64,000 nucleotides of DNA from Micropruina sp. (GTDB lineage: Bacteria > Actinomycetota > Actinomycetes > Propionibacteriales > Propionibacteriaceae), in NCBI GenBank assembly GCA_047602545.1, contig JASGHC010000003.1:88266-152265 (forward strand), in the 5' to 3' direction. The position numbers were made by a program, and so were the translations under genes. Position 1 is the stretch's first letter. Each line of letters begins with the position of its first letter. Of the stretch, positions 26,905 to 46,989 are shown piece by piece. The notes below the pieces were generated by a model, which was not told where the DNA came from, searched no databases, and saw only the letters and a list, made by a program, of their open reading frames with translations.

Positions 26905-26936
26905 TTACACAGACCATCTGACACGCCCGTTACGAG

Positions 26937-30154: not shown

Positions 30155-30304
30155 GGCACAACTGTAGAGCCGTCGGCCTCCGGACCCGAAAAGCCCGCGT
30201 CTGCTGGATCCCCTTCGACCGACGCATGGCAAGGAGCCGGCCCCGGCCGATCGCTACGGCTGGCTGCTGGCTGGGAGGACACGGATCCGAAACTCGAATC
30301 CCCG

Positions 30305-32041
30305 TCATTCGATCAGGTAGTCGTAGCGGACGCCGCTGGGCGGCACCGAGGGGCTGACCTTGGTGCGGTGGGCGGCCCAGACGTGCAGGGTGCCGTCGAT
30401 CCAGCGGGCCGCCTGGTAGCTGCGTTGGACGAGCAGGCCGCCGGTGGGCACCTCCTCCTCCGGAATCAGCAGGGCACCGTCGGGGCCGCCGCCGAGCAAT
30501 TCGGTGACGCTGTGCACGAGGCGGCGTCCGTCGATGTCGAGCACCGAGCCACGGGCCAGGACGACCTGCTCGCTGGGGCCGGGGCGGGCCGGGATGAGTG
30601 GGATCCAGTGCGGCGGCGGGCCCTGGGCCAGGTGGTAGTCGGGGGCCGGATCGGGGTCGCCGGGCGGATCGGGCGGCCGGGTCGCGCTCAGCGGGAGCCC
30701 GGTCTGCAGCGGGGACTCGACCGTCTGCTCGATCGCCCAGCCCAGGTTGGCCTGCTCGTCGCGGGCCAGCAGCACCTCTTCCACCACCGGTCCGGTCAGG
30801 GGTTTCGCCAGCCGGGGCGCGACGTACAGCAGGTTGCGGATGGTCGCACCCTCGGGTTCGTTCACGTCGGACGGCATGGCGTGCTGGAACACGCCCCAAC
30901 CCCTCGCCGAGGCGGCGTTGGGATCGCCGAGATGCCGCAGCAGCGTCCGGACGCCGAAGGTGTCGGTGACCACCAGCGACGACGTCCGGACCAGGCACCC
31001 GACCGGGAGGTCGACGCCGATCACGAACCAGTCGTTGCCGTAGCCGGAGAGGGTTTCGATGAGCAGCACCTGGGCCAGGTCGGTCTCCGCGGGCTGCAGC
31101 GCAGCCAGGTTGAGGTCGCCGTCCTCGAACTCCCAGAACCGGCGGGCCGGTAGGCCGGGCGCGGTGACCGGGGCGGGCATCACGCTCCGGACGACGGCCG
31201 GCCCGGCCTCGGCCGGAATGGTGCCCAGGTTGACCTCGCCGTTGACGTCGAACTCGTACCAGTCGAGCACGTCGCTGTCGTAGCGGTGCGCGGTGAGCGT
31301 GGTCTCGTCGAACGGGCTGGCGCCCAGCCGGGCTGCCATGGACGCCGTGTGCTCGAACCGCGCCGGCTGCCAGCACTCGGCGGCGAGGTCCACGTCGTCG
31401 AACAGGTCGGCCACCAGCCGCAACCAGTCGGCGCAGGCGACGCGGAACTCGGCCACGTCGCCGGGGGCCACGGTTTCGTCGATCCGGGGTTGCGGACGGC
31501 CGGTGAGCTCGCCGCGCAGTCGGCGTCCGTCCAGGCTGCGACCGCCGTGCAACCGGGCGTAACCGGCGGTCGCAGGATCCGCCTCGGCCAGCACGTCGTC
31601 GCCGTAGATCGGCAACGCGAACCCCCGCAGCAGCGCCGGCGCGTAGTCGCGCGACACCGTCTGACCGGCCAGCAGCCGCAGGAACAGCCGGCCGGTGTCC
31701 ACCCCCAGCCGCAGCCCGGCCAGCGTGTCGGCGGTGGCCGGCAGCGGCGCGCCCGCCTTCTCGATCAGGGTCTCCAGCGGTGCCGCGAGGGCGGCGAAGG
31801 TGGGCGCCTGCAGCTGCGTGTTCGGCGGGATCGGGCCGGCGACGAACCGGGTGGGCTCGGCGGCCACGCCACGCCAGCGGGCCACCACCGGGGTGCCGCC
31901 GTCCTGGGCGGCGAACTCGCCGAGCTGCCATTGCCGGGCCAGCAGCCACAGCGGGTCGTGCACCGGTGCGGTCGCGCCAACCGTCACGTCCGGACGCAGT
32001 GGGTCGGGTTCGAGCCGGAAGTAGCTGGTGATCGACGCCAT
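30305..32041 (-). CDS. Uncharacterised 578-aa protein (gene 5 of the orphan operon)
   Basis: The composition is protein-like. The ATG lies 1 nt after the stop of the upstream gene. No family, signal peptide or TM segment was recognised. Confidence 0.78.
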   Translation of the reverse strand: MASITSYFRLEPDPLRPDVTVGATAPVHDPLWLLARQWQLGEFAAQDGGTPVVARWRGVAAEPTRFVAGPIPPNTQLQAPTFAALAAPLETLIEKAGAPLPATADTLAGLRLGVDTGRLFLRLLAGQTVSRDYAPALLRGFALPIYGDDVLAEADPATAGYARLHGGRSLDGRRLRGELTGRPQPRIDETVAPGDVAEFRVACADWLRLVADLFDDVDLAAECWQPARFEHTASMAARLGASPFDETTLTAHRYDSDVLDWYEFDVNGEVNLGTIPAEAGPAVVRSVMPAPVTAPGLPARRFWEFEDGDLNLAALQPAETDLAQVLLIETLSGYGNDWFVIGVDLPVGCLVRTSSLVVTDTFGVRTLLRHLGDPNAASARGWGVFQHAMPSDVNEPEGATIRNLLYVAPRLAKPLTGPVVEEVLLARDEQANLGWAIEQTVESPLQTGLPLSATRPPDPPGDPDPAPDYHLAQGPPPHWIPLIPARPGPSEQVVLARGSVLDIDGRRLVHSVTELLGGGPDGALLIPEEEVPTGGLLVQRSYQAARWIDGTLHVWAAHRTKVSPSVPPSGVRYDYLIE

Positions 32042-32042
32042 C

Positions 32043-35000
32043 TCAGCCTCCCGCCGGAGTCAGGCCGTGCGGATTGGTGGACGGCACGTCGGCTTCATTG
32101 TTGAACGCGAGCACGGAAGCCGGCAGGTACTGCCGCACGGCGCCGAGCGCTTCGGGCGGCACCGCTCGCAGGTGCGCCAGTTCGAGGGTCTCGATCAGCA
32201 CCTGGTTGAGGCTGCCGACCGTCCACGGCTCACCGGGCACCGGCGGCACCGCCAGCAGAATCGCCTGCGGCGCCATCGCCTCCGGCGGGTCGTACCGGAA
32301 CGCCACCCCGGTGGTCTGAGTGTCGGAGGGTACCACCTCGGCCCACTCGTCGATCAGCAGACCGGCCAGGGTGCGTCCCGGCGCCAGCAACTCGCCGCCG
32401 ACCAGCAGCAGCGAGCTGGCGCCGTCGACGTAGCGGCTTGCCGGAAGCGCATTCCAGGTGTCGCCCGAGGCGTACGGCACCTGCGCCACCGACAGCCGCA
32501 ACGGCAGCCCGCCGAGCGCTTCGGCCTCGCGCAGGGCGATCCCGGCCCGGGCCAGCGGCTCGCGGACCCGTTCCATCCGGGTCAGCCAGACTTCTGCGCC
32601 CAGAGGGTCGCCGCCGGTCAGCGCCGGGTCGTCGCGGGACGCCATCAGCTGGCCGACACTGCTGGGGACGAATCGGGGGACCGCGACGAACCCGGGGCCG
32701 ACCAGGGCGCGCGCCTCGGTCAGCAGCCCGTCGACGTCGCTGGACCCCGCCACTGGCGCCGCCAATCGGGCGGTGAGGTCGGCCCGCACCCGGACGGCCG
32801 CAGCGTCCCAACCGGATTGCGCGGACGGCAGCCCGGCCTCACCGACGCCGAGCGTCCAGGAGGCGATCACCGCCTCTCGGAGGTCGTCGTCGGAGCCGCC
32901 GTTCACGGCGGCATCGAGGGCGGCGACCACCTCGTCGACCCGTTGCCGGGCCTCGGTCACCCGGGCGCTCAACTCGGCGGCGTCCACCCCGCCGAGTGGG
33001 TCGGCGTGCGGCGGCTGCAGGTCGGCGCCGTCCAGCGGCTTCGCGGCGGTGACCAGGGCCGCGAGAGAACTGCCCAGTTCAAGCAGCGCCAGCAGGTCGG
33101 GGTCCGGGGTCAGTTGGGTGGTCTCCACCGCCAACCCGGACGCCAGCGCGGCCCGGACGGTCAGCTCGCGCAGGCCGCCCTCGGTGCCGGCCAGGTGCAC
33201 GAAATCGGACGCGGTGAGCCTCAGGTCGGGCCACGGCACGGATAGCGGTGGGTCGCCGGCCAGGGTGACCGTCCGGTGGGACGCGGGGCCGAGCATCGAT
33301 CCTAGCCAGGCGTCCAGTGCGGGCTCGGCTGCGGCGCGAGCGGACCCCCCGGGGCGGAGCCCGGGATGACGGGGTGCGGCGGTCGGGTCGCCGGACGGAG
33401 TGACGACCGGGGAGTCGGAGGGACCTGCCCAGCCGGGTGTGGGCGCGGCGTCCGGGTCGAACAGCAGCACCACCCGGTGGGTGACCGCGGCACCGGTCCG
33501 CGGGGTGGCCAGGAAGTCCAGGTCGGGCGGCGGGGTCAGGCCACGGTCGAGGTCGCCGACGGTGTTCACCGCGCGGGTCAGGTCGCCGCGGGCGAACTGG
33601 TGGGCCTGCTCGGCCTGCAGGGTGTCGGCGCAGGCGTCCACCGCCGCATTGAGCGCCCGGAGGACGGCGACCGCGCGCTTGCGCTCGTCGTCGGTCGGTG
33701 TCCGGCTCATCGACACCAGATGGTCGACGGCGTGGTCCTCGCCGCCCAGCCACAGCTCGTGCAGCCGCAGGCCGTCCAGCCGGCGGGCCTCCACCGGCAG
33801 CTCCTCCTGGCCGGGCAGCGGGGCCACCTCGCGGGCGTCGTTGATCGCGAAGTCGAGGTTCCGCTCATGCAGGTCACGCTCGACCAGGTAGCCGAGCACC
33901 GCGCCCATCGTGCGTCCGGCCCGGACGCCGTCGAAGACCCAGCGGGCCAGCCGGATCCGCTCCGAGGTGAGGCTGACCGCGAACGGATCCTGCTCGCCGC
34001 CGCCGTGGGCCAGGTGCGCGTTGCGCAGCATCGCCGCCACCTGCGCCTGATGCACCGACGGGGCATGGATGAACCCCGGATCGTCGTCGGCGAACACCAG
34101 CGGCGCCGGCTCGCCGGCCGGTAGTTGGGTGACCGGGGTGGCGACCGACGGCTGCAGACCCTCCACCCAGCCGTAACCGCCGGCCAGCAGCCCGGTCGGC
34201 GCCGCTCCCCGCAGCTGTGTCAGCCGAGCGGACGCCAACGCGGTCACCCAGGCGTCCAGCCGGTAGGCGGACGCGTCCAGCGTGCCCAGCAGCTGCCGCT
34301 CCAGGACCGGCGCTGGGACCGGCGCCAACGCCTCGACGGCGGCCCCGAACCCGGCCAGCGGTCCGGTCGGCGATTGGTCGGCCAGCCGGTCGCGCACCGT
34401 GCCGCCGCCGGGTAGCGCCGTGGCGCGCCGGGCCTCCCACCCGGTCACGTCGTCACCGAAGCCGTAGAACTCGGCGTCCGCGGCGGGCAGCCCGAGCAGC
34501 CGGGACGCCGCGTCCGCGTGCTCGCGCAGCAACCCGTGCCGCAGCAGCGCCTCCAGCACCGACTCGGGAACATCCGGTGAAGTGGCCAGCGTGTCCGGAT
34601 CGGCCGCCAGCAATGCCCGCAACGCGTCCGCCTCGCCCTCCGCACGCACCAGCGGCAGGCTGACCGGACGCCCGTCCGGCTCGTGGACGACCAGCGCGCC
34701 GGGCACCAGGCCGAGGCCGGCTGCCCGGGCGATCGGCAGGTTCCGGTCTCGCGCGGCGTTCCAGAAGCCGATGTCGGTCAGCTCGAGGGCCAGGAAGCGG
34801 ACCAGGTTGTCGGCGAAGCGGGCGCCCATGCTGCGCCGAACCGTCAGGTCGTCGGAGCGGCCCTCCAACCGCAGCACGTTGACCAGATCGGTGGCGACGT
34901 CGCCGCGCCCGACCCGGGGCGCGAGCCCGGCGGCCGGACGCCAGCCCTGATCGCGCAGCCCGGCCAGCGTCCGCGCCAGCCGGGACAGTCGAGCATCGTC

Positions 35001-36206
35001 GCCGCCGAAGCGGCCCAGCGAGGTCACCGGCAGCACCCCGTACGGCTGCCGGCCCACCCGCAACACCGGCAGCGGGCCGTCGGGGCGGACGAACTGGGCG
35101 GCGAAGTCGCGGGCCCAGTCATTGGTCGCGGCGTCCACCCCGACGAACTGGGTGAGCCAGTAGCCCCAGGTGGCCGGCCACAGGGCACGGCTCATCGCGG
35201 CCGCTACCCGCGGCTCGTCCAGCTCGGCGTGCGGCAGGCTGCCGACAAGCTCGTCGTCACCCACGCCGAAAGCCGCGGACGCCGCCGCACCGAAAGAACC
35301 CGGCACCGGGGTGGCGACCGCCGGTGACCAGCCGCCCGGATCGGTGCTCGACCAGCCCGACGCCGCCGCCTCTGCGTTGTTCGTCGTCGCCTCCGGAGGC
35401 AAGAACCCGAGCCCGGCCGAATACCGTTGCGCCTCCAGCAGCGCCGCCACCTCGGTGGCTGCAAGGGCGGCGTCGCCGTCCCGGACGCCGCAGGCCACCA
35501 ACAGGTTGACCGGGCCGGTCACCGGCAGCCGCACGGCCATGCCCAATTTCTCCGCCGCTCCGAAGTCGATCAGCCAGTTCATGCCGGCGTTGACGGCGGC
35601 CACCTCGTGGTCGTCGGCGTCGGCGATCAGCGGCGCGGCCAAGTCCGGCCCGACGGCCGGGTCGATGGTGATCGGTGCGCCGGTGACGGCGGCGATCAGC
35701 TGCCCGCCGGCGTAGGCGGTCACCGTCCACTGCCGCGGCAGCAGCCGAGCCACCGGGGTGCGCCGGTCCTCGGTCACGGTCAGTGCCGGGAATGCCGGGT
35801 CGGAGCCCAGCGGATCGCCGTCGCTCATCTCGACGCTCGGCCGCGCCGCCGGATTGGTTGGACGGGTGGCCCGCGCGACCCAGCCCGCCCGTCCGGGCCC
35901 GAAGCGGTCCGCCAGCGCGGCCCACAGCCGCTGCTGCCGGGCGGCGTTCGCGCCGGTGCGCCACTGGCCGCGCCAGAACTCCTGGCCGGCGGCCTGTTCG
36001 GCCTCGGACAGCCGCGGGTCGTGGGCGTCCACCTGCACCTGGTCGGGGTAGATCCGCACCAGCAGCTCGCCGCCGGCGTAGCGGGTCTCCAGCCGCACCG
36101 GCAGCAGGGCCAGCGGATGCTCCGGGTCGGCCAGCACGCCGCTCAGCCGTGGGTCGGCGAGCAGGGTGTCCGCGGTGAGCGGGGCCAGGTTCAGCGGATC
36201 GGTCAT
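32043..36206 (-). CDS. Uncharacterised 1387-aa protein (gene 4 of the orphan operon)
   Basis: The start MTDPLNLAPL overlaps the upstream stop (ATGA at 36203-36206). The longer track ORF to 36710 is rejected. No family was recognised. Confidence 0.78.
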   Translation of the reverse strand: MTDPLNLAPLTADTLLADPRLSGVLADPEHPLALLPVRLETRYAGGELLVRIYPDQVQVDAHDPRLSEAEQAAGQEFWRGQWRTGANAARQQRLWAALADRFGPGRAGWVARATRPTNPAARPSVEMSDGDPLGSDPAFPALTVTEDRRTPVARLLPRQWTVTAYAGGQLIAAVTGAPITIDPAVGPDLAAPLIADADDHEVAAVNAGMNWLIDFGAAEKLGMAVRLPVTGPVNLLVACGVRDGDAALAATEVAALLEAQRYSAGLGFLPPEATTNNAEAAASGWSSTDPGGWSPAVATPVPGSFGAAASAAFGVGDDELVGSLPHAELDEPRVAAAMSRALWPATWGYWLTQFVGVDAATNDWARDFAAQFVRPDGPLPVLRVGRQPYGVLPVTSLGRFGGDDARLSRLARTLAGLRDQGWRPAAGLAPRVGRGDVATDLVNVLRLEGRSDDLTVRRSMGARFADNLVRFLALELTDIGFWNAARDRNLPIARAAGLGLVPGALVVHEPDGRPVSLPLVRAEGEADALRALLAADPDTLATSPDVPESVLEALLRHGLLREHADAASRLLGLPAADAEFYGFGDDVTGWEARRATALPGGGTVRDRLADQSPTGPLAGFGAAVEALAPVPAPVLERQLLGTLDASAYRLDAWVTALASARLTQLRGAAPTGLLAGGYGWVEGLQPSVATPVTQLPAGEPAPLVFADDDPGFIHAPSVHQAQVAAMLRNAHLAHGGGEQDPFAVSLTSERIRLARWVFDGVRAGRTMGAVLGYLVERDLHERNLDFAINDAREVAPLPGQEELPVEARRLDGLRLHELWLGGEDHAVDHLVSMSRTPTDDERKRAVAVLRALNAAVDACADTLQAEQAHQFARGDLTRAVNTVGDLDRGLTPPPDLDFLATPRTGAAVTHRVVLLFDPDAAPTPGWAGPSDSPVVTPSGDPTAAPRHPGLRPGGSARAAAEPALDAWLGSMLGPASHRTVTLAGDPPLSVPWPDLRLTASDFVHLAGTEGGLRELTVRAALASGLAVETTQLTPDPDLLALLELGSSLAALVTAAKPLDGADLQPPHADPLGGVDAAELSARVTEARQRVDEVVAALDAAVNGGSDDDLREAVIASWTLGVGEAGLPSAQSGWDAAAVRVRADLTARLAAPVAGSSDVDGLLTEARALVGPGFVAVPRFVPSSVGQLMASRDDPALTGGDPLGAEVWLTRMERVREPLARAGIALREAEALGGLPLRLSVAQVPYASGDTWNALPASRYVDGASSLLLVGGELLAPGRTLAGLLIDEWAEVVPSDTQTTGVAFRYDPPEAMAPQAILLAVPPVPGEPWTVGSLNQVLIETLELAHLRAVPPEALGAVRQYLPASVLAFNNEADVPSTNPHGLTPAGG

Positions 36207-38968
36207 GACTCGGGCTCCCGCATCAGCACGGTGATCGGAATGGTGATCCGGGTCGGCAACTGGCGCAGCCGTCCGGCGAGGGCGGCGGCGGTGGCATCGG
36301 ACGCCGGGGCATGCGTCACGTCCGCGGGTGCCTCGCCGACCTCGAAGCCGAACCGGGGCGCGCCCGGCTGCTCGGCGATGCTGATCGTGTACTGATCGGC
36401 CTGCGCCAGCGGGATGGTGAAGCCGAAGTAGCTGACGTCGGGGTCGAGCGAGCCGCGGAACACGGGCAGCAGGGTGACCGGTGGGTTGGCGCCGGGCTTG
36501 GACGCGGTGACCACGGCGTCCGGGAAGCGGCGGATCAACTCGCTGCGCAGCAGCAGTACGAACCGTTCCTGGCGCAGGGTCGGTGCACCCAAGGCCCGGT
36601 CGGCCCACTGGTCGAGCTGCGGAATGTCGGGCTGCTCGCTGGGTGCGACGGCGGCGTCCCAGAACTGGTCGAAGAAGGTCGCGGTGCGCGGCGCCGGGAA
36701 CTCGCGCCACAGCAGCTCGCGGCCGAACTCGTGGTTCAGCCCGACCAGGAACGCCTCGACGAAGGCACCGTTGGTGCGCAGCGCCACCGCGGTGTTGGCC
36801 GGGACTCCGTCCAGGCCGGGCAGCAGCCAGTGCTGGCCCAGCTCGATCAACGCCTGCGCCATCGGGGTGGCGAATCGTGGCGTGAAGCCGAGGTCGGGCA
36901 GCGGCGACTCCGAGCCGGTCGGAGCAGAAACAGGGGTAGTGAACAGGGCGTCGAGCGCCACCGCGAAGGTGCGGACGGGCGCGACGAGTTCCTTCGCCTC
37001 CGCGACCAGGGAGCCGATGGCGACCGTGCCGCGGTGCGGCGGGCGATGCGGCCGCTCGTCCAGGAACGCGGCGAGCTGCGCGCCGGCCACCTGGCGGAAC
37101 AGCGCGGCCGCCGCCGAGTCGCGCCGGGGCGGCAGGGGGTGCGGACGCGGATCGACCGGATCGGGGTCGCCCGGGTCCGGCAGGTCCGGATCGCCCGGAT
37201 CGCCCGGTCGGCGGCGGGCGACCGGTGTCGGCCCGCCGCCGTCCTCGGTGGTGCGCAGCGCCGGTCGCAGCACCCCGTGGGTCACGCCTCCGGTGGCGAC
37301 CTCACCGGGCAGCGGGAACGGACGCGGACCCGCGGGCGCCGCGGCGGCGCCCAGCACGAAGCCGGGCCGGGGTGGCCGGTCGTGCACGGCCTGTGCGGTG
37401 AGGCTGCCCCAGACCACGTGCTGCTGGATCGGCGCCGTGGGCGTCACGGCGTCGAAGGTGAGCGGACCGCTGGACGCCTCGAAGGTGCGCTGCAGCACCG
37501 CGGCCGGCACCATCCGGCTCAGCCAGTCGAGTGTCGGCAGGGGAGTGCCGCCGGTCTGGGCGACCCGCTCCGCCGTCCGTACCGCCGGGCCGCGGGCCCG
37601 GGTCACCCGGCGGACCGCCGACCCGATCGCCGCGGACGGCAGCTCGGCCGCCGACCACTGGGCGGCGAAGCTGGCGCCGCTCGAGGTGGCCGGCGCGGTC
37701 ATCAACCGGGCCCGCAGCGGGGCCAGCACGAACACCCCGGTCTCGGCGGTGAGCGGTGCGACGTAGCGCCGGTGCAGGCTGGCGGCGACGGTGAAACCGA
37801 CACCGGCCAGGCCGACCAGCCGAGACGCCGCCCGCAGGTCGGCGGCCTGGTCCCATGCCGCTGCCACCAGGGTCTCCTGCTGGCGCTGGATCACCAGGGT
37901 GCCGAGCGCTGCCGCCACCCGGGCGGTCGGGTCGCTGTTCAGCTGCTCGTACCACCGGCCGCCGGCCGCGGCGTCCAGGGTGGCCGGGGTGCGGTAGGCC
38001 GAGCCGTAGCGCGGCGGCGCCAGCACCGGTGGGTTCGGCGATGCGGCGTCCGGAGCGTTCAGGACGGCACGCAAGGCGGAGGCGAATCGCGTTGCCAGAC
38101 CGGGGTCGGGCCAGCGGTTGACAGGCGTGTCGAGAGCCAGCAGGGCGCCGCCGAGCAGTTCCTGGGCGTCGTCGGTGCCGGTCAGCCCGAGGCCCGCGGT
38201 GGACAGGTTGACGGGCCGGGTGCCGAACCCGTCGCCGACGCCGCGCCCGCGGATCGCCAGCGCCAGCGACTGGAAGTCGCCGGCCGGTCCGGTGGCGAAG
38301 CGCCAATGGTGATAGATGGGCAGTTCGACGCTCGGCATGCCGTCGGCGAGCGTCCAGGCGGGACCCTCGGCGTTGCCCGGGTCGTCGCCCAGGCCGGCCC
38401 GGCGTCCGGCCTCGAAGGTGGGCACCACGCAGGCCAGATAGGACGTCTGCTCGTCCAACAGCCGCCCGCAGACCAGCCGGGACAGGGTGCGGGCCGGGTC
38501 GCCGGCCAATGCGGACGCCACCGCCGCCGAGTTCGCCGCGCCGTCCAGCGCCACTTGGGCGTGCGCCCAGGCCCACGAGTCGGCCAGGTTCGGCAACTCG
38601 TTCTCCGGCTTGGCCGGGGCGCCGATGGTCAGCACCGGCAGGGCACCGCGTCCGGCCGGGCCGAGCCGCACGCCCGGCTGCTCACGCAGCACGATCAGGC
38701 ACAGCCAGGGCCGCAGCTTCCCGCCGGACGCCGACGCCGGAGTGAACAGCCAGGGCAGCCCGGGGTCGTCGAACTCGACCAGGGCAAGGTAATTCGACTC
38801 GAAGGTGCGGGCGTTCGGCGCCGGATCGGAGCGGATCACCTGCTGCGGCGACACCCCGGTGACGTCGCCCGGGCCCAACAGCTGTACCGGCACGGATGCG
38901 CTCGGTCCGCCGTTGACGGTGACGCCCGCGGTGGTGCCGACATGGCTGGCCGGATGAGCGGTGTGCAC
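36203..38968 (-). CDS. Uncharacterised 921-aa protein (gene 3 of the orphan operon)
   Basis: A GTG start lies at 38968. The composition is protein-like, with an internal Pro/Asp-rich linker (PGDPGDPDLPDPGDPDPVDP). No family was recognised. Confidence 0.78.
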   Translation of the reverse strand: MHTAHPASHVGTTAGVTVNGGPSASVPVQLLGPGDVTGVSPQQVIRSDPAPNARTFESNYLALVEFDDPGLPWLFTPASASGGKLRPWLCLIVLREQPGVRLGPAGRGALPVLTIGAPAKPENELPNLADSWAWAHAQVALDGAANSAAVASALAGDPARTLSRLVCGRLLDEQTSYLACVVPTFEAGRRAGLGDDPGNAEGPAWTLADGMPSVELPIYHHWRFATGPAGDFQSLALAIRGRGVGDGFGTRPVNLSTAGLGLTGTDDAQELLGGALLALDTPVNRWPDPGLATRFASALRAVLNAPDAASPNPPVLAPPRYGSAYRTPATLDAAAGGRWYEQLNSDPTARVAAALGTLVIQRQQETLVAAAWDQAADLRAASRLVGLAGVGFTVAASLHRRYVAPLTAETGVFVLAPLRARLMTAPATSSGASFAAQWSAAELPSAAIGSAVRRVTRARGPAVRTAERVAQTGGTPLPTLDWLSRMVPAAVLQRTFEASSGPLTFDAVTPTAPIQQHVVWGSLTAQAVHDRPPRPGFVLGAAAAPAGPRPFPLPGEVATGGVTHGVLRPALRTTEDGGGPTPVARRRPGDPGDPDLPDPGDPDPVDPRPHPLPPRRDSAAAALFRQVAGAQLAAFLDERPHRPPHRGTVAIGSLVAEAKELVAPVRTFAVALDALFTTPVSAPTGSESPLPDLGFTPRFATPMAQALIELGQHWLLPGLDGVPANTAVALRTNGAFVEAFLVGLNHEFGRELLWREFPAPRTATFFDQFWDAAVAPSEQPDIPQLDQWADRALGAPTLRQERFVLLLRSELIRRFPDAVVTASKPGANPPVTLLPVFRGSLDPDVSYFGFTIPLAQADQYTISIAEQPGAPRFGFEVGEAPADVTHAPASDATAAALAGRLRQLPTRITIPITVLMREPES

Positions 38969-39032
38969 GTCCGGCGGCAGGGCGAGCGCTCCACCCCGGC
39001 GGACCCAGGGCAGGAAGGTCAGGGCCGGTGGG

Positions 39033-42000
39033 TCATGGCACCGCTCCCGGAACCAGGCCCAATCCGATCATCTGGGGCGCGGCCAGCCGGGGGGCGTCCG
39101 CACGAGCCACCCGGCTGTAGCGGCCGGCCGCCGAGGTGCGGGTCAGTGCCCGGGCCGCGGCGCTCATCCGCAGGCCGGCGCGGACGTGGTCGGGTGCGGC
39201 GGGCTTCGGCTGCTCCTGGACGACCGGTACGCCGTCCGGCCCCACCAGGATCTCGGTGTAGGCGAACGGCGCGGCCACCCCGGCGGCGGCGTCCGTGGCG
39301 TAGCGGTCGCTGCCGAAACCCACCCCGGCTTGCCGGGTCACCATGCCGGGCGCCGACAGCCGCTCGGCGTCGGTCTGCTCGAAGAACTGGCTGTCCGGGA
39401 ATTCGTCGTGGACGACCTGGTCGAAGGTGGTGATCACCGTGTCGCCGACCCGGCCCGCGGTGATCGAGAAGCGGCGCTCCTTCGCCGGCACGAACGCGCC
39501 CACCCGGTCGATGTCGCGGTTGACGTTGAGCGGCACCAAGCCCTGCTGGACGACCAGCTGGCCGAGCGGATGCAGCCACAGCCCGGTCGCGGCCGGGTCG
39601 GTGCGGACGCCGACCAGCTCGCCCGCGGTGGGCGGCAGCACGGCCCGCCAGCTGAGCGGATCGCTCAGCCGGGTGACCAGCTCGTTCAGCACGTCGAGCG
39701 CGTCACTGACCAGCGAGTTGCTGCCGCCGATCAGATTCTTGTCGAACGACACCGAGTAGTCCCACCAGAGCAGGCTGAACGTCGCCTTGCCGGCCACCCG
39801 CAGCGGCAGCGGACCCTCCAGGGTGCCGCTGACGTCCACCTTGAACAAGTTCCGGCTGCCGCGCTTCAGCTGGACGCCGGCCTTGAAGTCGGCGATGAAG
39901 TGCGGCGGCCAGAACTGCACCAGCACGTCGAAACCGATGTAGCCCTCGATCGAGAAGCCGAAGGCGGCCGCATACAGCGAGGCGGTGGCGCCGAACTGCA
40001 GCGTGTTCGGGGTGATCGCCAGGTAGGCCTCGATGATCAGCTTCGGGTTGTCGCCGGTGGTCAGCGCGACCGTGACCCGGGGCACCACCGGGAAGTTGGC
40101 CGGCGGGCTGAACCGCGGATTGAAACCGCCGATGGCCAGGGCGAACCCCAGGCCTGGGGCACGCCGGAAGGCGGCGGCACCGGTGAGTGCGAAGCGTCCG
40201 AACAGCTTCGACTCGTACAGCACGGCGTCCAGGGCGGCGAAACCGGTAGAGAAGTCGAACTCGCCCACCACGTCCAGGTTGAGGGTGAGCAGCGGCGCCT
40301 TCTCCTGCGGCAGCACCGAACTGACCCGGCCCAGCACCAGCAGCCGGGACGAGTCGGTGGTGCCGTCGCGTTCCAGCATCAGCGCCAGGTCGGCGCGCAG
40401 CAGCGGGCTGGCGGCGCTGCCGAAGGTGAGCTTCACCAGCAGCCCGTAGATGTGGGTGCCCTCCTTGGGTGGGAAGAAGGTGCGCAGCCCGGCCACCATC
40501 TCGGGCAGCGTCTTGATCGGGTCGGCCGGGAAGAGCAGGTATTTCAGCTTGCCGGACGGCAATGCGGCCCGCACGGCGGGGACGTCCAGGGTGCGGTCGG
40601 CGGCGTACAGGAGGCCGAGGCCGTCCAGGGTGATGAAGCCGGCGGTCAGGCCGAGGTGCTCGACGGTGCCGATCAGGATGAACGAGGTCAGGGCGTTGCC
40701 CTGGGCGTCGCGGGTGGAGACCAGGCCGAGGCAGGTGAGGGTGACCCGGTCGCCGATCCGCAGCACCACGGCGCCGTAGTAGTCGCCGGAGGCCAGGTCG
40801 TGATGGATGGTGCCGCCGCCGCTGATCGGGCCGGTCTGCAGGTTGAGCGCGATGCCGGTGGGCAGGCTGGCGTCCACGTGCGCGTTGACCAGCCGCAGGT
40901 TGCGCTGGTCGGACGGCTTCATGGTGTCGAGCTGTGCCAGCAGGCCCAGTTCGTCGACCCGCAGGTACACCGGGCCCCAAGTGGCGCTGAAGGTGATCAG
41001 GCCGCCGGCGGCGACCGCCCAGCCGGTCTGCGGTTCGTCGGCGCTGCGCCAGGCCAGCCGCAGCACCAGTTCGAGCACGTTGATGCCCAGCACTCCGCCG
41101 CCGCCCATCGGCAGGGTGATGTCGAGATCGGACGGCCCGGCCGGCCCGAGGAGTCGAACGGAACGGCGGCGTTGGTGGTGGCGTCCACCCCGGAGACCCG
41201 GTGCACTTCGTGGATGAAACCCAGCTTCGAGTCGTAGCCGAGCGAGAGCCCGAACATCGTCCGATAGGGCTTGCCGCCGAGTAGTTTGCGGATGAAGCTG
41301 TCGGCGCTGGAGCCGTCCACCACCAGCGCGCAGTTGTCGAGCACCATGAGCACCCGCGCGCCGGTGGGCGACAGGGTGAGCAGGAACGAGATGCCGCCCA
41401 ACTCGACCCGGATGCCGGTCGAGCGCGGCAGCGCGTAACTGATGCCGCTGGCGTCCGGTGTTGCCACGTACCCGAAGGACGCCTCCAGCCCGGACGCCTC
41501 GGGGCTGGCCTCGATGTCGTCGCCGCTGAGCAGCAGGGCGGCGCCGGCGTCGCTCTTCACGCCGACCCGGAACCGCCAGGTGGGATCGCCCTGGCCGCGG
41601 TTGGGGTTGAGCACCTGGTCGATGGTCAGCGCGCCGCCGAGCGCCAGGAACAGCTGGTGTTTCCGGGCCGGGGTGCCCAGCCGTCGCGGCAGGTACAGCC
41701 AGCTGAGTTTCAACTCCTCGTCGGACGGGTCGCCGTCGTGGCGCAGCGAGAACGACACCATCCGGCTGGCCAGCAGGTCGGCCGCGGTGGGCCGGGTGGG
41801 CGAGTCGATGTCGAGGCCGGGGGCGTCCCAGCCGACGATGACGTCGCTGAGCACGTTCTCGTTGAACTCGTCCTTGGTCTGGTCGATGGTGGCGATTGCG
41901 GCCATGATGCCGCGGATCAGTCCGTCGACGACGAGGAAGGTCGTGTCGCGTGCCGTGTTCAGCGTCGAGCCGGACGCCCCCTCGCGGGTGTCGTCCAGGT

Positions 42001-42544
42001 CGTCGAGGGTGCGGCCCGGGTTCCAGACGAAGGACAGGATGGTGGTGATCGAGTTCAGGAATCGGCCGGCGTGGTACTCGCCGCCGGACTTGTCGGGCAG
42101 CGCATGGTCGCCCGGGCCGAGCGATCCGGTGAGTTCGGAGGCGATCGCCACCCCCTGCATGACCAGGTACAGCTTGGGCCAGCGCTGCCGCACATAGGTG
42201 CTGCCCAGCAGGTCGAACATGCTGGTCACGAAGGTGTCGGTGCGGCCCGACCAGTCGCTGCCACCCCACGATTCGATCTGGTCGATGATCGCGCCGATCA
42301 GCAGCGCCAGGTTGCCGGCCGCCTCGATGTCGGCCTGTAGATCCTCGTTCGTCGAGGCGCGGTAGGCGGTGATCGAATCCAGCGGAGCCTTGGGCAGGTC
42401 CAGTTGGGTCGAGGCGCCCGGTGGTCCGCCCAGGTCGCGCAGGATCGCCTCGCGGGCCTCGGCGCGGCCCAGCAGGTCGGCAACGAAGCCGATGAAGTCG
42501 ATCACTTCGCCAGCCAGCTTGCGCAGCACCGATCCGGCGCTCAT
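39033..42544 (-). CDS. Uncharacterised protein of about 1170 aa (gene 2 of the orphan operon), interrupted by an apparent -1 frameshift near 41153
   Basis: The N-terminal part starts at 42544 (MSAGSVLRKL, an ATGA overlap with gene 1). Protein-like sequence switches from the frame of ORF 40997..43186 to the frame of ORF 39033..42269 around ...AVPFD / LLGPAGPSDLDITLP.... Confidence 0.6.
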
Positions 42545-45486
42545 GGCGTCGGCTCCGGGATCGGCACGGACTCGATGGCGAACCGGCGCAACTGTTCGGG
42601 CGGGTCTTCGGTCAGGGGGCCGAGCGGGGCCCGGTGCACCATGTAGGGGCCCATCACCGCCAGCTGGGTGTCGGGGTCGACGGCCTCGGTGTACACCTCG
42701 CCGACCGCGGTGACCGCGTCGCCGTCGCTCTCGAACCGGCAGATGCCGAAGTTGGAGCGGAACATCATCTGCCGGGTGTTGCGCATCCGCTCCAGGGCGT
42801 GCTGGTGGCGCACCGCAACCGCCCGGAGTGCGGCGAACGTGGTGGCCGGGTCGGCGGCTTGCTGCTCGATCAGAGCCTCGTCCAAGGGGAAGGCGCGGAT
42901 CGGCGTGGGGCGCACGGCGTTCGGGTCCTCCGGTGGCGGCTGCGGCACCACATCGGGCCGAGCATCGAGCAGGGGAGTGACCCGCCAGCGCCACTCGGGC
43001 GGCTTGGCCGGATTGAGCCGTGAGGTCTTGGCCGGGTCGGTTTCGCCGGGCGGGTTGTCGTCGATCCAGCCGTGAGTGGGCAGCAGCACCGGGCTGCGCA
43101 GCAGCTTGGCGCGGGTAACGGCGACCAGGTCGTCCTCGGTGCGCCCGGACGGCAGCACCACCAGGTCGGTGTCCGGCCTGGTCCAACCGAGTCGTTCGAC
43201 ACCGAGGCGGGCGCGCAGCATCTGCTGCAGCGCCATCATCTTGGCGTCCAGGGCCTGCAGGTAGACCGGCATCACGTTCTTGAAGCCGCTCGAGGTGAAC
43301 TGGGCGATCCGGGCCGGGCTGGTGCTGGTGCCGCGCCAGTAGCTCATCAGGTTGGACGCGGCGTTGTGCACGTCACCGGAGAGCAGCACCACCCGCCCGT
43401 AGTCGGCCAGCCGGGACATGAGGTACTCGAAGGTGTTCTCGTCCAGCGCCCAGGTCTCCAGGGCGTCCGGGTTGGTGCCGGGCATCAGCCGGGTGCCGGA
43501 GATCTTCGTCTCGGCCACCTCGTCGTAGTGGACGGCGTCGAAGATCTTGTAGATCGCCCGTCCGACCACCTCGTCGAGCACCGGCGGACCGATCACCTGC
43601 AGCGGCGCGATCACCACCAGTACCTCGACCCCGACCGGCAGCGGTGGCTTGGGGATCTGGTCGTCCAACGCCTCCTTCGACACGTTGCCGGGCGGGCCGA
43701 CCTCGCTGACGTAGCTGCGCCGGGTGCGGTTGTCGAGCGCCACCACCCGGTGCTTCGGCCCGTCGATGGTGAAATGCCAGGTGAGCGGCGGTTTGACCGA
43801 CAGGAATTGCCCGTTGGGCAGCGGCTGGTTGTCGAGATCGTGGCCGAACATCTTCGCCAGCGCGGTGAAGGTGGCGGCGTCCGGGCCCCTGGTGGCGCCC
43901 TCGGGGAACAGCTTCGGCACGGCCACCAGCAGGTCGCCGGGCAGCTGGCCACCCAACTCGGGACGGGTGACGGAGGTGATGTCGTAGCGCCGCGGGTCGT
44001 TGCCCCAGTCCTGGAACAGGGCGTAGGCGGTCATCGCGTTGGTCAGGATGGTCTGGCCCAGCGCGGAGCCCAGCACCCGGTGCCGCCACATCGGGGTGAG
44101 GAAGTAGTCGTCGGTGACGTCGTGGTCGTCGAGGATCATGTAGGTCGGCACGTTGGCGAGCAGCCGTTGGGCGCGCCACAGGCCGGCCAGGAATTGCCGG
44201 TGCACTCGTTGGTTCCGACGGCTGACATTCGGCTTCTTGGCTTCCTTCTTCGCCTTGTCCTTGGCGCGTTCGTCATCCTCTTCGGCGCGTTCGGCGGCGC
44301 TGAGCTCGTTGCGGCGCTTCGCCTCCTTGGCGATCTCCTCGGTTCGGACCGTTGCGTCGGTGAAGGTGTACTGCGGCACGCGCGCGGGAAATCCCGGTGC
44401 GGGCAGGTCGACGGACTGTTGGTCGGTGAGCACGTCGAGCCAGTTGACGGTGCCGGACGCCGCGGCGTCCGGGGTCTGCTTCAACTTCGCGCCCGGGATC
44501 TCGGTGCCCCAGCAGGCCGGCGACCAGTAGAGCAGGTAGGTGGCGGCGAACTCGCCCAGCGAGATCAGGTGGTTCCTGCCGTCCTCGCTGGTCAGCTGGG
44601 CGCTGCAGTTGGTCAGGTAGAGCCGGTTGCCCACCCCGAACCAGGGTGGGCCGGCGGGCAACGGGTTGGCCGTGGTGGTGGCGGTGGCCTCGTCTTCGTA
44701 GGCGGCGTCCGGATTCTCGGGGTCGACAGGGGGCTTCAGCAGCCGCACCTTGTCAACGGCGACCCGCTCGACCGGGGTCGCGGCCGGTTCGCCGGACAGC
44801 GGAGCGGACGCCGACGCCGTCCCGATCAGCTCGACACCCAACTCGACCACCCGGCGCATCAGCACGTCTTCGACGTCGTCGGCGTAGATCTGGTCGCCGC
44901 CCAGGAACAGCTGATGCAGCCGGGCGCGCGGGTCCCCAACGCGTTCGGCCAGGTACTCGTCCATCCAGGCGAACGCGTCGCCGTCGTCGTAGCCGGCACG
45001 GCGGCACGAGCCGTAGGCGAGCTGCAGGTCGTCGAGCTGGCTGGGCGGCAACGCGAAGCTGGGCAGCATCCGGTCGGCGTAGCCGAGCGGACCCGCGGTG
45101 GTACCGCTGACCTGATGGGTCTCCAGCAGCTTCAACGACTGCAGCGTGTTGGTGCCGCCGTCAGCCTCGATCCACAGGTTGTAGGAGTACAGCCGGTCCG
45201 GCTCGAACACCTTGCCGGAGGCGGGCGGAATGCGCGCCGACACCAGGCTCAGGTAGAGGTGTTCGCCGACCCGGATCGCCTCAGCCCCGGGGAACGGCGG
45301 CGGCGCGTTCGGATCGGGCGGGTCCGCGCTGGACACGAACGGCGGGTTGGTCGTGTCGTAGGCGACCCGCCCCTCGAACACTTCCAGCGTCACCGAGGCC
45401 GGGCTGCTGAACGCCGTCCAGACGCTGACCAGCCCCGGGTTGACCCGACGAAGGATCGGGCCCGCCAAGAGCAACGGAAGTTCCAT
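42541..45486 (-). CDS. PhoD-like metallophosphoesterase-domain protein, 981 aa (gene 1 of the orphan operon)
   Basis: Motifs occur in PhoD order: LLAGPILRRV..VSVWTA, YGSCR, FLGGDQIYADD, ILDDHDVTDDY, LLSGDVHNA. The protein also has a charged K/E/A-rich insert and a long C-terminal extension. No signal peptide was seen. Confidence 0.75.
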   Translation of the reverse strand: MELPLLLAGPILRRVNPGLVSVWTAFSSPASVTLEVFEGRVAYDTTNPPFVSSADPPDPNAPPPFPGAEAIRVGEHLYLSLVSARIPPASGKVFEPDRLYSYNLWIEADGGTNTLQSLKLLETHQVSGTTAGPLGYADRMLPSFALPPSQLDDLQLAYGSCRRAGYDDGDAFAWMDEYLAERVGDPRARLHQLFLGGDQIYADDVEDVLMRRVVELGVELIGTASASAPLSGEPAATPVERVAVDKVRLLKPPVDPENPDAAYEDEATATTTANPLPAGPPWFGVGNRLYLTNCSAQLTSEDGRNHLISLGEFAATYLLYWSPACWGTEIPGAKLKQTPDAAASGTVNWLDVLTDQQSVDLPAPGFPARVPQYTFTDATVRTEEIAKEAKRRNELSAAERAEEDDERAKDKAKKEAKKPNVSRRNQRVHRQFLAGLWRAQRLLANVPTYMILDDHDVTDDYFLTPMWRHRVLGSALGQTILTNAMTAYALFQDWGNDPRRYDITSVTRPELGGQLPGDLLVAVPKLFPEGATRGPDAATFTALAKMFGHDLDNQPLPNGQFLSVKPPLTWHFTIDGPKHRVVALDNRTRRSYVSEVGPPGNVSKEALDDQIPKPPLPVGVEVLVVIAPLQVIGPPVLDEVVGRAIYKIFDAVHYDEVAETKISGTRLMPGTNPDALETWALDENTFEYLMSRLADYGRVVLLSGDVHNAASNLMSYWRGTSTSPARIAQFTSSGFKNVMPVYLQALDAKMMALQQMLRARLGVERLGWTRPDTDLVVLPSGRTEDDLVAVTRAKLLRSPVLLPTHGWIDDNPPGETDPAKTSRLNPAKPPEWRWRVTPLLDARPDVVPQPPPEDPNAVRPTPIRAFPLDEALIEQQAADPATTFAALRAVAVRHQHALERMRNTRQMMFRSNFGICRFESDGDAVTAVGEVYTEAVDPDTQLAVMGPYMVHRAPLGPLTEDPPEQLRRFAIESVPIPEPTP

Positions 45487-45722: not shown

Positions 45723-45905
45723 ATGGCCGAGCGCATCCAGCGTCAGCGCAGCACTGCGCGCGCCGAGGAGTCGCAGGTCGAGGTGACCCCGGCAGCCACC
45801 AAGCCGGCGGTGGACTACGACGCCCTGCTCGACGAGATCGACTCGGTGCTCGAGACGGACGCCGAGGAGTATGTCCGCTCCTTCGTGCAGAAGGGCGGCC
45901 AGTGA
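45723..45905 (+). CDS. pup: Prokaryotic ubiquitin-like protein Pup
   Basis: 60 aa ending ...EEYVRSFVQKGGQ, the canonical C-terminal GGQ. A GGAGGA sequence lies upstream. Confidence 0.93.
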   Translation: MAERIQRQRSTARAEESQVEVTPAATKPAVDYDALLDEIDSVLETDAEEYVRSFVQKGGQ

Positions 45906-46981: not shown

Positions 46982-46989
46982 GGAGAATC

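What the first reader, a model, noticed from the sequence alone, without database searches (positions are those of the whole stretch)
30305..45486. Orphan 15.2-kb operon of five giant uncharacterised proteins wedged between dop and pup
Five consecutive minus-strand genes total about 5,000 codons: 981 aa at 42541..45486, about 1170 aa at 39033..42544 if the frameshift is bridged, 921 aa at 36203..38968, 1387 aa at 32043..36206, and 578 aa at 30305..32041. Their translations have ordinary protein composition, unlike the Arg/Pro/Gly-rich antisense ORFs. Apart from PhoD-like metallophosphoesterase motifs in the first protein, I cannot assign any of them to a family. By eye there is no Walker A (GxxxxGK[ST]) and no helicase, methylase, nuclease or DDE motif. 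There is also no signal peptide, lipobox or clear TM helix, and no phage sheath/tube/portal-like sequence. The block lies on the opposite strand exactly between dop and pup, which are adjacent in canonical actinobacterial pupylation loci. Its GC content looks host-like. It therefore behaves as a discrete module inserted into a conserved locus. Its function is unknown. Speculative options are a large cytoplasmic or envelope-associated assembly, a non-canonical toxin, or a phage-defence module.
Basis: partly seen in the sequence, partly recalled or inferred. Interest (0 to 1): 0.9.

Follow-up and report, generated by a model that had tools for sequence, protein, structure and literature searches.

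The report
Widespread five-gene swappable-enzyme cassette
The five giant genes between dop and pup are one copy of an uncharacterised cassette found in many bacterial phyla and some archaea, in which four conserved huge proteins of unknown fold are paired with an interchangeable degradative enzyme, probably forming a new kind of enzyme/toxin-delivery complex.

Summary
Five tightly coupled minus-strand genes (about 5,060 codons) lie between dop and pup. The block is not an orphan. The same g2-g3-g4-g5 set, in the same order, occurs in every one of 48 informative loci from at least 10 phyla, including haloarchaeal plasmids, always in different surroundings. DUF6603 (g2) has 7,522 representatives at 50% identity, yet no paper mentions it.

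The first gene is interchangeable. It is PhoD-like here and elsewhere PLD, subtilase, M64-like peptidase, a glycoside-hydrolase-like protein or one of several unknown classes.

The N-terminal ~530 residues of g2 are swapped together with the enzyme, while its C-terminal DUF6603 domain stays 60-100% identical. Two loci carry two enzyme+g2 pairs ahead of one g3-g4-g5.

No core protein matches Pfam (apart from DUF6603), NCBIfam, PADLOC, PHROGs or PDB sequences. A confident AlphaFold model of g4 (pLDDT 80) has no Foldseek match.

Homologues carry extracellular-type add-ons: PG-binding, FG-GAP, lamin-tail, beta/gamma-crystallin and a halo surface domain.

Best reading (about 45%): a new polymorphic enzyme/toxin-delivery complex, with g2 as a payload-specific adaptor. 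Main rival: an abortive-infection defence system.

The window copy has two 1-nt frameshifts, but Ka/Ks (0.09-0.41) shows selection.

The parts
42541..45486 (-). g1, 981 aa: the variable 'payload' gene, here a PhoD-like metallophosphoesterase without a signal peptide
   Evidence: ORF. Pfam PhoD 17.9 bits, below cut-off; homologues L086 and L038 pass at 29.2 and 27.3 bits. Invariant GSC, GDQIYAD, DDHDxTDD and SGDVH motifs. In other loci this position holds PLD, S8, M64-like, GH-like or unknown proteins.
39033..42544 (-). g2, about 1,170 aa once the frameshift is bridged: a payload-specific N-terminal half plus a conserved C-terminal DUF6603 domain
   Evidence: Two ORFs, 40997-43186 and 39033-42269, joined by homology to intact 1,165-1,169-aa proteins. 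The N-terminal half co-varies with the payload class.
39378..41000 (-). DUF6603 (PF20248) domain of g2, the conserved docking half
   Evidence: Pfam E=4.3e-94, residues 424-964 of ORF 39033-42269. Identity between tandem g2 copies jumps from about 30% to 85-100% at this boundary.
41135..41147 (-). 1-nt deletion (frameshift) within g2, in a GGGCC run
   Evidence: tblastn frame switch. Comparison with L003 and L008.
39022..39036 (-). ATGA start of g3 overlapping the g2 stop, followed by a second 1-nt deletion in a C-run
   Evidence: the window reads ATGACCCACCGGCCCTGACC, whereas five homologues stay in frame into the conserved (L/F)xFLPW motif.
36203..39036 (-). g3, about 944 aa: conserved core protein with no known family
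   Evidence: No Pfam, NCBIfam, PADLOC or PHROGs hit and no PDB hit with a profile. Long Streptomyces/Micromonospora variants carry FG-GAP and DUF3892.
32043..36206 (-). g4, 1,387 aa: the largest and most conserved core protein, mainly alpha-helical, with no known fold
   Evidence: AlphaFold2 on residues 188-1387: pLDDT 80.4, pTM 0.59. Foldseek against PDB and BFVD gives no match at E<=1e-3.
30305..32041 (-). g5, 578 aa: conserved core protein with no known family
   Evidence: at least 1,078 clusters, all 'hypothetical'. The AlphaFold2 model is poor, pLDDT 56. Some homologues carry C-terminal beta/gamma-crystallin or lamin-tail domains.
28311..29675 (+). dop (flank, not part of the cassette)
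   Evidence: Pup_ligase E=3.6e-142. TIGR03688 Dop 479 bits against PafA 324 bits. The N-terminus MPLLGTETEYGI is intact.
29681..30232 (-). 4HBT thioesterase (flank, not conserved with the cassette)
   Evidence: Pfam 4HBT E=4e-17. Found next to the cassette only in L029.
45723..45905 (+). pup (flank), divergent from g1 across a 236-bp spacer
   Evidence: ORF ending in GGQ. TIGR03687 66 bits.

Best explanation
The block is one copy of a widespread, self-contained five-gene cassette encoding a large multi-protein complex that carries an interchangeable degradative enzyme.

Shown:
- g2, g3, g4 and g5 are always encoded together, in this order and tightly coupled.
- The gene in front of g2 is swapped among unrelated hydrolase families.
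- The N-terminal ~530 residues of g2 are swapped together with that enzyme, while the C-terminal DUF6603 domain stays conserved.
- Several enzyme+g2 pairs can precede a single g3-g4-g5.

Inferred:
- The N-terminal half of g2 binds its cognate enzyme, and perhaps keeps it inactive.
- The DUF6603 half docks this pair onto a scaffold built from g3, g4 and g5.
- The whole assembly acts outside the producer cell as a polymorphic toxin or enzyme-delivery particle against the envelopes of competing cells. In Micropruina the payload would be a PhoD-like phosphodiesterase acting on teichoic acids, phospholipids or nucleic acids.
- Because no signal peptide is present, release would be by lysis or an unknown route, as for Tc toxins and tail-like particles.
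For: Co-conservation:
- In 48 of 48 loci with enough downstream sequence, g3, g4 and g5 follow g2 in order on the same strand. In 10 further loci the fetched DNA ends inside g4.
- Hosts include Actinomycetota, Alpha-, Beta- and Gammaproteobacteria, Acidobacteriota, Nitrospirota, Myxococcota, Chloroflexota, Gemmatimonadota, Heliomicrobium and haloarchaeal plasmids.
- No other flanking gene is conserved across phyla.

Variable payload:
- PhoD-like in most loci; PLDc_2 in L004, L037, L042, L051, L056 and L063; Rv2525c-like GH in L053; subtilase S8 in L054, L079 and L088; M64-like in L081 and L085; and at least 7 unknown classes.

Cassette swap:
- For locus pairs whose DUF6603 halves are 60-75% identical, the g2 N-terminal halves are 59% identical if the payload class is the same and about 21% if it differs.
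- In Nitrospira L079 (PLD-g2-S8-g2-g3-g4-g5) and Pyrinomonadaceae L051 (X-g2-PLD-g2-g3-g4), the two g2 copies are 15-37% identical up to about residue 530 and 85-100% identical afterwards.

Extracellular-type accessory domains on homologues:
- PG_binding_1 on a PhoD-like payload, and FG-GAP on g3.
- A halo surface domain on g4 and two lamin-tail domains on g5.
- Beta/gamma-crystallin on g5.
- Payload families (PhoD, S8, M64, GH25-like, PLD) are typical exo-enzymes or envelope-directed effectors (established knowledge).

Other support:
- Purifying selection, Ka/Ks 0.09-0.41.
- 4-bp start/stop overlaps suggest stoichiometric co-production.
- g5 is poorly predicted as a monomer despite strong conservation. 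This is compatible with folding only inside a complex, but it is weak evidence.
Against: - There is no direct evidence of a complex, of export or of toxicity.
- No signal peptide, TM segment, secretion ATPase, lysis gene or conserved secretion partner was found.
- No immunity gene accompanies the payloads, which is unusual for interbacterial toxins.
- No shared docking motif was found among the payload classes.
- The extracellular-type domains occur in a minority of homologues and not in the window copy.
- The window copy has two frameshifts and may be inactive.
- The PhoD assignment of g1 is marginal.
Confidence: 0.45

Rival explanations
1. It is an intracellular anti-phage (abortive-infection) system. 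g3-g5 sense infection and release or activate the g2-bound hydrolase, which kills the infected cell. Payload swapping would then be effector diversification, as in Lamassu, Avs or CBASS.
For: - The effector module is swappable, and it encodes PLD, protease and phosphoesterase activities that also serve as defence effectors.
- The distribution is patchy, with inter-phylum transfer and plasmid carriage.
- All proteins lack signal peptides.
- No immunity gene is needed under this model.
- The window copy lies next to IS elements.
Against: - No PADLOC hit for any of the five proteins.
- No NTPase, helicase, nuclease or other known sensor motif in about 4,000 conserved residues.
- No relatives in viral contigs.
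- The annotated neighbourhoods examined are not defence islands.
- The accessory domains (PG_binding_1, FG-GAP, lamin-tail, crystallin, halo surface domain) and a GH25-like payload point to the outside of the cell.
Confidence: 0.2
2. It is a non-toxic extracellular or cell-surface scaffold that displays degradative exo-enzymes (phosphodiesterase, lipase, protease, glycosidase) for nutrient scavenging, in the manner of a cellulosome.
For: - The payload families are classical scavenging exo-enzymes.
- The hosts are soil and sludge heterotrophs.
- Surface- or adhesion-type accessory domains occur on homologues.
- There is no immunity gene.
Against: - There are no signal peptides or anchoring motifs.
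- Each complex carries one enzyme rather than a synergistic set.
- Rapid payload swapping with a sharp recombination boundary is more typical of conflict systems.
Confidence: 0.12
3. It is a cytoplasmic cargo-sequestering assembly (compartment-like), in which g2 targets an enzyme into a shell made of g3-g5.
For: - The adaptor-plus-cargo logic fits.
- No export signals were found.
- g4 has a large helical novel fold.
Against: - There is no similarity to encapsulin or microcompartment shell proteins.
- Extracellular-type domains occur on core proteins.
- Wall-directed payloads (GH-like, PG-binding) make little sense in the cytoplasm.
Confidence: 0.08
4. In this particular genome the block is a decaying, non-functional remnant.
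For: There are two 1-nt deletions, one in g2 and one at the start of g3.
Against: - Both lesions are single-base losses in G/C homopolymer runs, a typical long-read error pattern.
- There are no further stops or deletions.
- Ka/Ks is 0.09-0.19 against a 96%-identical relative and 0.20-0.41 against M. sonneratiae, for all genes tested.
- Close relatives are intact.
Confidence: 0.15

Closest known systems
Tc (ABC) toxin complexes (TcA/TcB/TcC)
   Same: Several giant proteins (about 1-2.5 kaa) without signal peptides are encoded in one operon. A conserved machine carries a hypervariable enzymatic payload that is exchanged by recombination. Extra payload modules can share one machine.
   Different: There is no sequence or fold similarity: Pfam finds no VRP1/ABC_toxin_N, TcA_TcB_BD, SpvB, TcdB_mid or RHS domain, and Foldseek of g4 is empty. 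Here the payload is a separate full-size enzyme encoded upstream, not the C-terminal tip of TcC. The variable part of the carrier is N-terminal.
Polymorphic toxin systems (Rhs, CdiA, LXG, Streptomyces umbrella toxins)
   Same: There is a sharp boundary between a conserved region and a swapped toxin module. Tandem alternative modules occur. The repertoire is hydrolytic. The systems occur in soil competitors such as Streptomyces and Myxococcota.
   Different: The toxin is not fused to the conserved protein. No immunity gene follows. There is no known trafficking domain (no RHS, LXG, WXG, PT-VENN or ALF) and no dedicated secretion system nearby.
T6SS VgrG/PAAR-adaptor-effector islands and eCIS (PVC/Afp) cargo loading
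   Same: An effector gene is paired with a cognate adaptor or chaperone encoded next to it. Orphan effector+adaptor pairs exist (L053). Some members are released without signal peptides.
   Different: There is no sheath, tube, baseplate, spike or AAA+ protein. PHROGs, Pfam and BFVD searches are all negative, and there are no viral-contig relatives.
Anti-phage systems with swappable effectors (Lamassu, Avs, CBASS)
   Same: A conserved core is combined with diverse hydrolase effectors. The distribution is patchy and shaped by horizontal transfer.
   Different: No PADLOC hit. No SMC, STAND or cyclase core, and no NTPase motifs. The accessory domains are of extracellular type.
PhoD alkaline phosphatase/phosphodiesterase family (for g1 only)
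   Same: Metallophosphoesterase-type invariant motifs are present, including a conserved Cys. Two homologues reach the Pfam PhoD threshold and carry an N-terminal DUF7800.
   Different: The window g1 is below threshold at 17.9 bits. A profile search does not retrieve any PDB PhoD. There is no Tat signal, and the protein is about twice the size of PhoD.

Membership tests
DUF6603 (PF20248), for g2 | Match to the Pfam model above the gathering score | tested here: met
   316 bits, E=4.3e-94, against a cut-off of 27. Homologues are annotated 'DUF6603 domain-containing protein'.
PhoD-like phosphatase, for g1 | Match to Pfam PhoD above the gathering score | tested here: inconclusive
   Window g1 scores 17.9 bits, below 27. 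Homologues L086 (29.2) and L038 (27.3) pass. A profile search against PDB sequences gives no PhoD hit.
PhoD-like phosphatase, for g1 | Conserved metal-binding and catalytic motifs of the metallophosphoesterase type | tested here: met
   GSC161, G197-D-Q-I-Y-A-D203, D453-D-H455..T-D-D460 and S703-G-D-V-H707 are invariant in 18 sequences. Equating these with PhoD ligands is from memory; it was not aligned to a PhoD structure.
PhoD-like phosphatase, for g1 | Tat/Sec signal peptide (secreted enzyme) | tested here: not met
   The N-terminus MELPLLLAGPILRRV has no twin-arginine signal or hydrophobic h-region.
Tc / ABC toxin complex | TcA, TcB and TcC hallmark domains (VRP1/ABC_toxin_N, TcA_TcB_BD, SpvB, TcdB_mid, RHS repeats) | tested here: not met
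   No such Pfam hit in the five window proteins or in 26 diverse g4 homologues. No Foldseek match of g4 to any Tc structure.
Contractile injection systems (T6SS, eCIS, tailocins) | Sheath, tube, baseplate or spike proteins and an AAA+ ATPase | tested here: not met
   Pfam, PHROGs and BFVD are negative. No Walker A. No conserved neighbours.
Known anti-phage defence systems | Match to any PADLOC-DB model | tested here: not met
   0 families for all six ORF translations at E<=0.1. PADLOC-DB v2 dates from 2023, so later systems are not covered.
Known anti-phage defence systems | Enrichment in defence islands | not tested
   Only a handful of annotated neighbourhoods were inspected. No statistical test was possible with these tools.
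Polymorphic toxin systems | Conserved region abutting a variable toxin module, with a sharp recombination boundary and tandem alternative modules | tested here: met
Polymorphic toxin systems | Toxin domain fused to the C-terminus of the conserved delivery protein | tested here: not met
   The payload is a separate upstream gene, and the variable part of g2 is N-terminal.
Polymorphic toxin systems | Cognate immunity gene adjacent to the toxin | tested here: not met
   The genes overlap by 4 bp, leaving no room, and no conserved small flanking ORF of at least 120 aa was found. Whether the g2 N-terminal half acts as an inhibitor is not testable here.
Pupylation locus (flanks) | Dop and Pup orthologues | tested here: met
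   Dop TIGR03688 scores 479 bits (cut-off 492, best model). Pup TIGR03687 scores 66 bits (cut-off 41).

The most novel reading that the evidence does not exclude
g2-g5 form a previously unrecognised, autonomous protein-delivery machine, unrelated in sequence and fold to Tc toxins, contractile injection systems or any secretion system. It loads full-size hydrolases through a swappable adaptor (the g2 N-terminal half) and delivers them to other cells. It is present in at least 10 bacterial phyla and in haloarchaea. This would be a new class of polymorphic toxin particle.
Probability: 0.35. Interest if true: 0.92.

Novelty: categorically new. Interest (0 to 1): 0.85.

Why it matters
If the cassette is a delivery or display machine, it would add a new and very widespread weapon or enzyme-carrier to the short list of large protein-toxin systems (Tc, CIS, Rhs, Umb). 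It would also be the first shared between Bacteria and Archaea with no detectable link to phage tails. About 4,000 conserved residues per system currently have no annotation, although thousands of family members exist in soil, sludge and sediment metagenomes. A plug-in rule, in which a payload gene plus about 530 adaptor residues is joined to a constant DUF6603 dock, would be directly exploitable for engineering cargo delivery. If the cassette instead proves to be a defence system, it would be one without any recognisable NTPase sensor, which is also unusual. For Micropruina, an abundant glycogen-accumulating organism in wastewater plants, it may shape competition in activated sludge.

Tried and rejected
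- Single-sequence and profile searches of all five families against PDB sequences found nothing usable. The best hits had E>=0.057 and were not credible.
- NCBIfam, PADLOC and PHROGs scans of the window proteins found nothing.
- A Pfam scan of 26 diverse g4 homologues gave only scattered coiled-coil noise.
- Profile-profile comparison (hhalign) of g1-g5 against each other found no paralogy.
- The AlphaFold2 model of g5 was too poor to use (pLDDT 56), and Foldseek on it was meaningless.
- Foldseek of the good g4 model against PDB and BFVD gave no match at E<=1e-3.
- I looked for a shared N- or C-terminal docking motif among payload classes and found none.
- I looked for any sixth conserved gene (immunity, lysis, secretion, regulator) in the 10-kb flanks of 79 loci. 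None is conserved outside Micropruina synteny.
- A viral-contig scan for DUF6603 found none.
- Promoter, terminator and Rfam scans of the block found nothing.
- Literature searches for 'DUF6603', 'PF20248' and combinations of toxin terms returned no relevant paper. Umbrella-toxin papers were retrieved for context only and were not read.
- Pseudogene decay was considered and judged unlikely from Ka/Ks.
Full report
**What is in the window.**
Five minus-strand ORFs occupy 30305-45486. They are packed head to tail. The g1 stop and g2 start, and the g3 stop and g4 start, share ATGA. g4/g5 reads TGAGATG.

g2 is interrupted. tblastn with the intact 1,169-aa protein of Micropruina sonneratiae matches residues 1-472 in one frame (42544-41135) and 469-1158 in another (41147-39081). 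The sequence shows one base missing in a GGGCC run.

The ATG that overlaps the g2 stop (ATGA at about 39033-39036) is out of frame with the conserved (L/F)xFLPW motif, which follows in frame in all five homologues compared. With both sites bridged, the proteins are 981, about 1,170, about 944, 1,387 and 578 aa.

A 96%-identical metagenomic relative (L008) and M. sonneratiae are intact at both sites. Ka/Ks is 0.09-0.19 against L008 and 0.20-0.41 against M. sonneratiae for every gene tested. The genes are therefore under purifying selection. The two lesions are either homopolymer sequencing errors or very recent.

- dop lies at 28311-29675. It scores 479 bits on the Dop model against 324 on PafA, and its N-terminus is intact.
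- pup lies at 45723-45905 and ends in GGQ.
- A 4HBT thioesterase sits between g5 and dop.
- pup is followed by tyrA, cmk and der rather than prcBA.

**Family assignment.**
g2 carries DUF6603 (PF20248, E=4e-94). g1 gives only a sub-threshold PhoD hit of 17.9 bits. Two long homologues do reach the PhoD threshold. The motifs GSC, GDQIYAD, DDHDxTDD and SGDVH are invariant, so a PhoD-like metallophosphoesterase is plausible but not proven. A profile search retrieved no PhoD structure.

g3, g4 and g5 match nothing:
- Pfam, NCBIfam, PADLOC and PHROGs are all negative.
- PDB sequences are negative by single sequence and by profile.
- The five families are not paralogues of one another.
- No Walker A motif is present.
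- No convincing TM segment or signal peptide is present.

**The block is not an orphan.**
The organism is a Micropruina: g2 is 96% identical to a Micropruina sp. protein. A scan of one genome per species with a DUF6603 alignment found at least 292 species, and 79 loci were fetched. I searched six-frame ORFs of all loci with the window proteins and with divergent seeds.

The results were consistent. In all 48 loci with at least 9.3 kb downstream, g3, g4 and g5 follow g2 in order on the same strand. Ten further loci have a 1,700-1,900-aa g3, so the fetched DNA ends inside g4. Shorter contigs show as many of the genes as fit. The single exception is L053, where a payload+g2 pair stands alone.

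The hosts are very diverse. They include Actinomycetota, Alpha-, Beta- and Gammaproteobacteria, Acidobacteriota, Nitrospira, Myxococcota, Anaerolineae, Gemmatimonadota and Heliomicrobium. Natrinema, Salinigranum and other haloarchaeal plasmids also carry it.

Family sizes are large:
- DUF6603: 7,522 representatives at 50% identity with E<=1e-3, of which 3,123 have E<=1e-30.
- g5: at least 1,078 clusters at 90% identity.
- g4: at least 887 clusters at 90% identity.

Every name given by a source is 'hypothetical' or 'DUF6603 domain-containing'. Neither 'DUF6603' nor 'PF20248' occurs in the searchable literature.

Nothing else in the flanks is conserved across phyla. The position between pup and dop is shared only by Micropruina spp. 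(L003, L009, L010, L019, L029). The cassette therefore entered that site in a Micropruina ancestor. Two Sphingomonas genomes carry versions 62-66% identical to the actinobacterial ones, whereas other proteobacterial versions are 30-37% identical. This indicates inter-phylum transfer.

**The first gene is a swappable payload.**
The position upstream of g2 is occupied by different proteins in different loci:
- a PhoD-like protein in most loci;
- a PLDc_2 protein in L004, L037, L042, L051, L056 and L063;
- an Rv2525c-like glycoside-hydrolase-like protein in L053;
- a subtilase in L054, L079 and L088;
- an M64-like peptidase in L081 and L085;
- at least seven classes without any family match.

None has a signal peptide, although most of these enzyme families are normally secreted.

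**g2 is a two-part adaptor.**
The N-terminal half of g2 is poorly conserved overall, but it tracks the payload. Among locus pairs whose DUF6603 halves are 60-75% identical, the N-terminal halves are 59% identical when the payload class is the same. They are about 21% identical, which is essentially unalignable, when it differs. The same trend holds in every identity bin.

Two loci make this explicit. Nitrospira L079 reads PLD-g2-S8-g2-g3-g4-g5. Pyrinomonadaceae L051 reads X-g2-PLD-g2-g3-g4. In both, the two g2 copies are 15-37% identical up to about residue 530 and 85-100% identical from there to the end. That boundary coincides with the start of the Pfam DUF6603 match.

The exchanged unit is therefore [payload gene + first ~530 codons of g2]. 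The DUF6603 half is the constant part. Several payload/adaptor pairs can share one g3-g4-g5.

**Structure.**
The g5 model, built from 121 sequences, was poor (pLDDT 56). Low confidence fell on several of its most conserved segments, and Foldseek on it was uninformative.

The g4 model covered residues 188-1387 and used 51 diverse sequences. It was good: pLDDT 80.4, pTM 0.59, with 949 of 1,200 residues at 70 or above. It is predominantly alpha-helical with a few beta elements. Foldseek found no match at E<=1e-3 in the PDB or in BFVD. Within the limits of these libraries, g4 has no known fold.

**Where does it act?**
The window proteins give no localisation signal, but homologues carry informative additions:
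- PG_binding_1 on a Streptomyces PhoD-like payload;
- FG-GAP repeats and DUF3892 in the long g3 of Micromonospora and Streptomyces;
- a haloarchaeal surface domain (NF045517) inserted in g4 of a Salinigranum plasmid;
- two lamin-tail domains at the end of g5 on the same plasmid;
- beta/gamma-crystallin domains on some g5 proteins.

From established knowledge, all of these are domains of extracellular or surface proteins. A peptidoglycan-binding or GH25-like payload has its substrate outside the membrane.

**Most likely mechanism (about 45%).**
The cassette encodes a large complex in three parts. The g2 N-terminal half holds a cognate hydrolase and may keep it inactive. The DUF6603 half docks the pair onto a g3-g4-g5 scaffold. 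The assembly then works outside the producer as a polymorphic toxin or enzyme-delivery particle.

The shown steps are co-conservation, payload variability, the payload/adaptor co-swap, the tandem pairs, the absence of known domains, and selection. The inferred steps are physical complex formation, adaptor binding, export (by lysis or an unknown route) and the target.

**Rivals.**
- An abortive-infection defence system with swappable effectors (about 20%) fits the cytoplasmic synthesis, the missing immunity gene and the patchy distribution. It does not fit the absence of any NTPase or sensor motif, the absence of PADLOC hits, or the extracellular-type domains.
- An enzyme-display scaffold (about 12%) cannot be excluded.
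- A cytoplasmic cargo compartment (about 8%) cannot be excluded.
- Independently of mechanism, there is about a 15% chance that this particular copy is inactivated by real frameshifts.

**Comparison with known systems.**
In logic the cassette is closest to Tc toxins, polymorphic toxin systems and VgrG/adaptor/effector islands. All have a constant machine, a recombining payload and spare modules. The cassette nevertheless fails every membership feature tested for them:
- no Tc, RHS, sheath, tube, baseplate or ATPase domains;
- the payload is not fused to the carrier;
- no immunity gene.

It also fails membership of catalogued defence systems. I therefore rate it as categorically new in kind. 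Two caveats apply. The DUF6603 family is already catalogued as a domain of unknown function. AlphaFold DB could not be searched.

**Verdict.**
Interest is high (0.85).

Noticed in passing
window 25501-27818 and 18000-28000: An IS256/Mutator-family transposase (25501-26904, minus strand) and a DDE_Tnp_1 fragment (27000-27818, plus strand) lie directly upstream of dop. The segment 18-28 kb has GC 0.61-0.65 against about 0.70 elsewhere, which suggests a separate foreign island next to the pupylation genes.
   Followed up: partly
window 45723-49040: pup is followed by prephenate dehydrogenase (tyrA), cmk and der, not by the proteasome genes prcB/prcA. The same arrangement is seen in other Micropruina genomes.
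   Followed up: partly
window 29681-30232: A 4HBT thioesterase on the cassette strand lies 72 bp downstream of g5. It is shared with L029 only and is absent in M. sonneratiae, so it is not part of the cassette.
   Followed up: yes
L079 695-12406; L051 4473-15592: There are tandem payload+g2 pairs with different payloads (PLD and S8 in L079; an unknown class and PLD in L051) ahead of a single g3-g4(-g5). The g2 copies are near-identical only in the DUF6603 half.
   Followed up: yes
L053 2760-8263: An orphan pair, a GH-like payload plus g2, has an opposite-strand ORF downstream instead of g3. The core may be elsewhere in that Gemmatimonadaceae genome.
   Followed up: partly
L090 (Salinigranum marinum plasmid NZ_CP100462.1) 1298-18280: This archaeal version of the cassette has enlarged proteins: g3 1,229 aa, g4 2,322 aa with a halo surface domain, and g5 904 aa with two lamin-tail domains. 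A 1,642-aa PKD/PQQ beta-propeller/PGF-pre-PGF protein is encoded just downstream.
   Followed up: partly
L017 and L021 (Sphingomonas spp.): These cassettes are 62-66% identical to actinobacterial ones, whereas other proteobacterial versions are 30-37% identical. This indicates transfer between phyla.
   Followed up: partly
L091 (Rhizobium lusitanum plasmid p_3) 3483-16076: In this variant g3 and g4 each appear to be split into two annotated CDSs (357+731 aa and 946+597 aa). A CVNH lectin gene lies downstream. I did not check whether the splits are real.
   Followed up: no
window 50263-50336: A single tRNA gene is the only Rfam match in the window at gathering threshold.
   Followed up: no
L009, L023, L025, L031, L064, L069, L088, L092: Many long-read MAG copies of the cassette are fragmented into several ORFs per gene. 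This fits homopolymer indel errors in very GC-rich DNA, and is relevant to judging the two frameshifts in the window.
   Followed up: no
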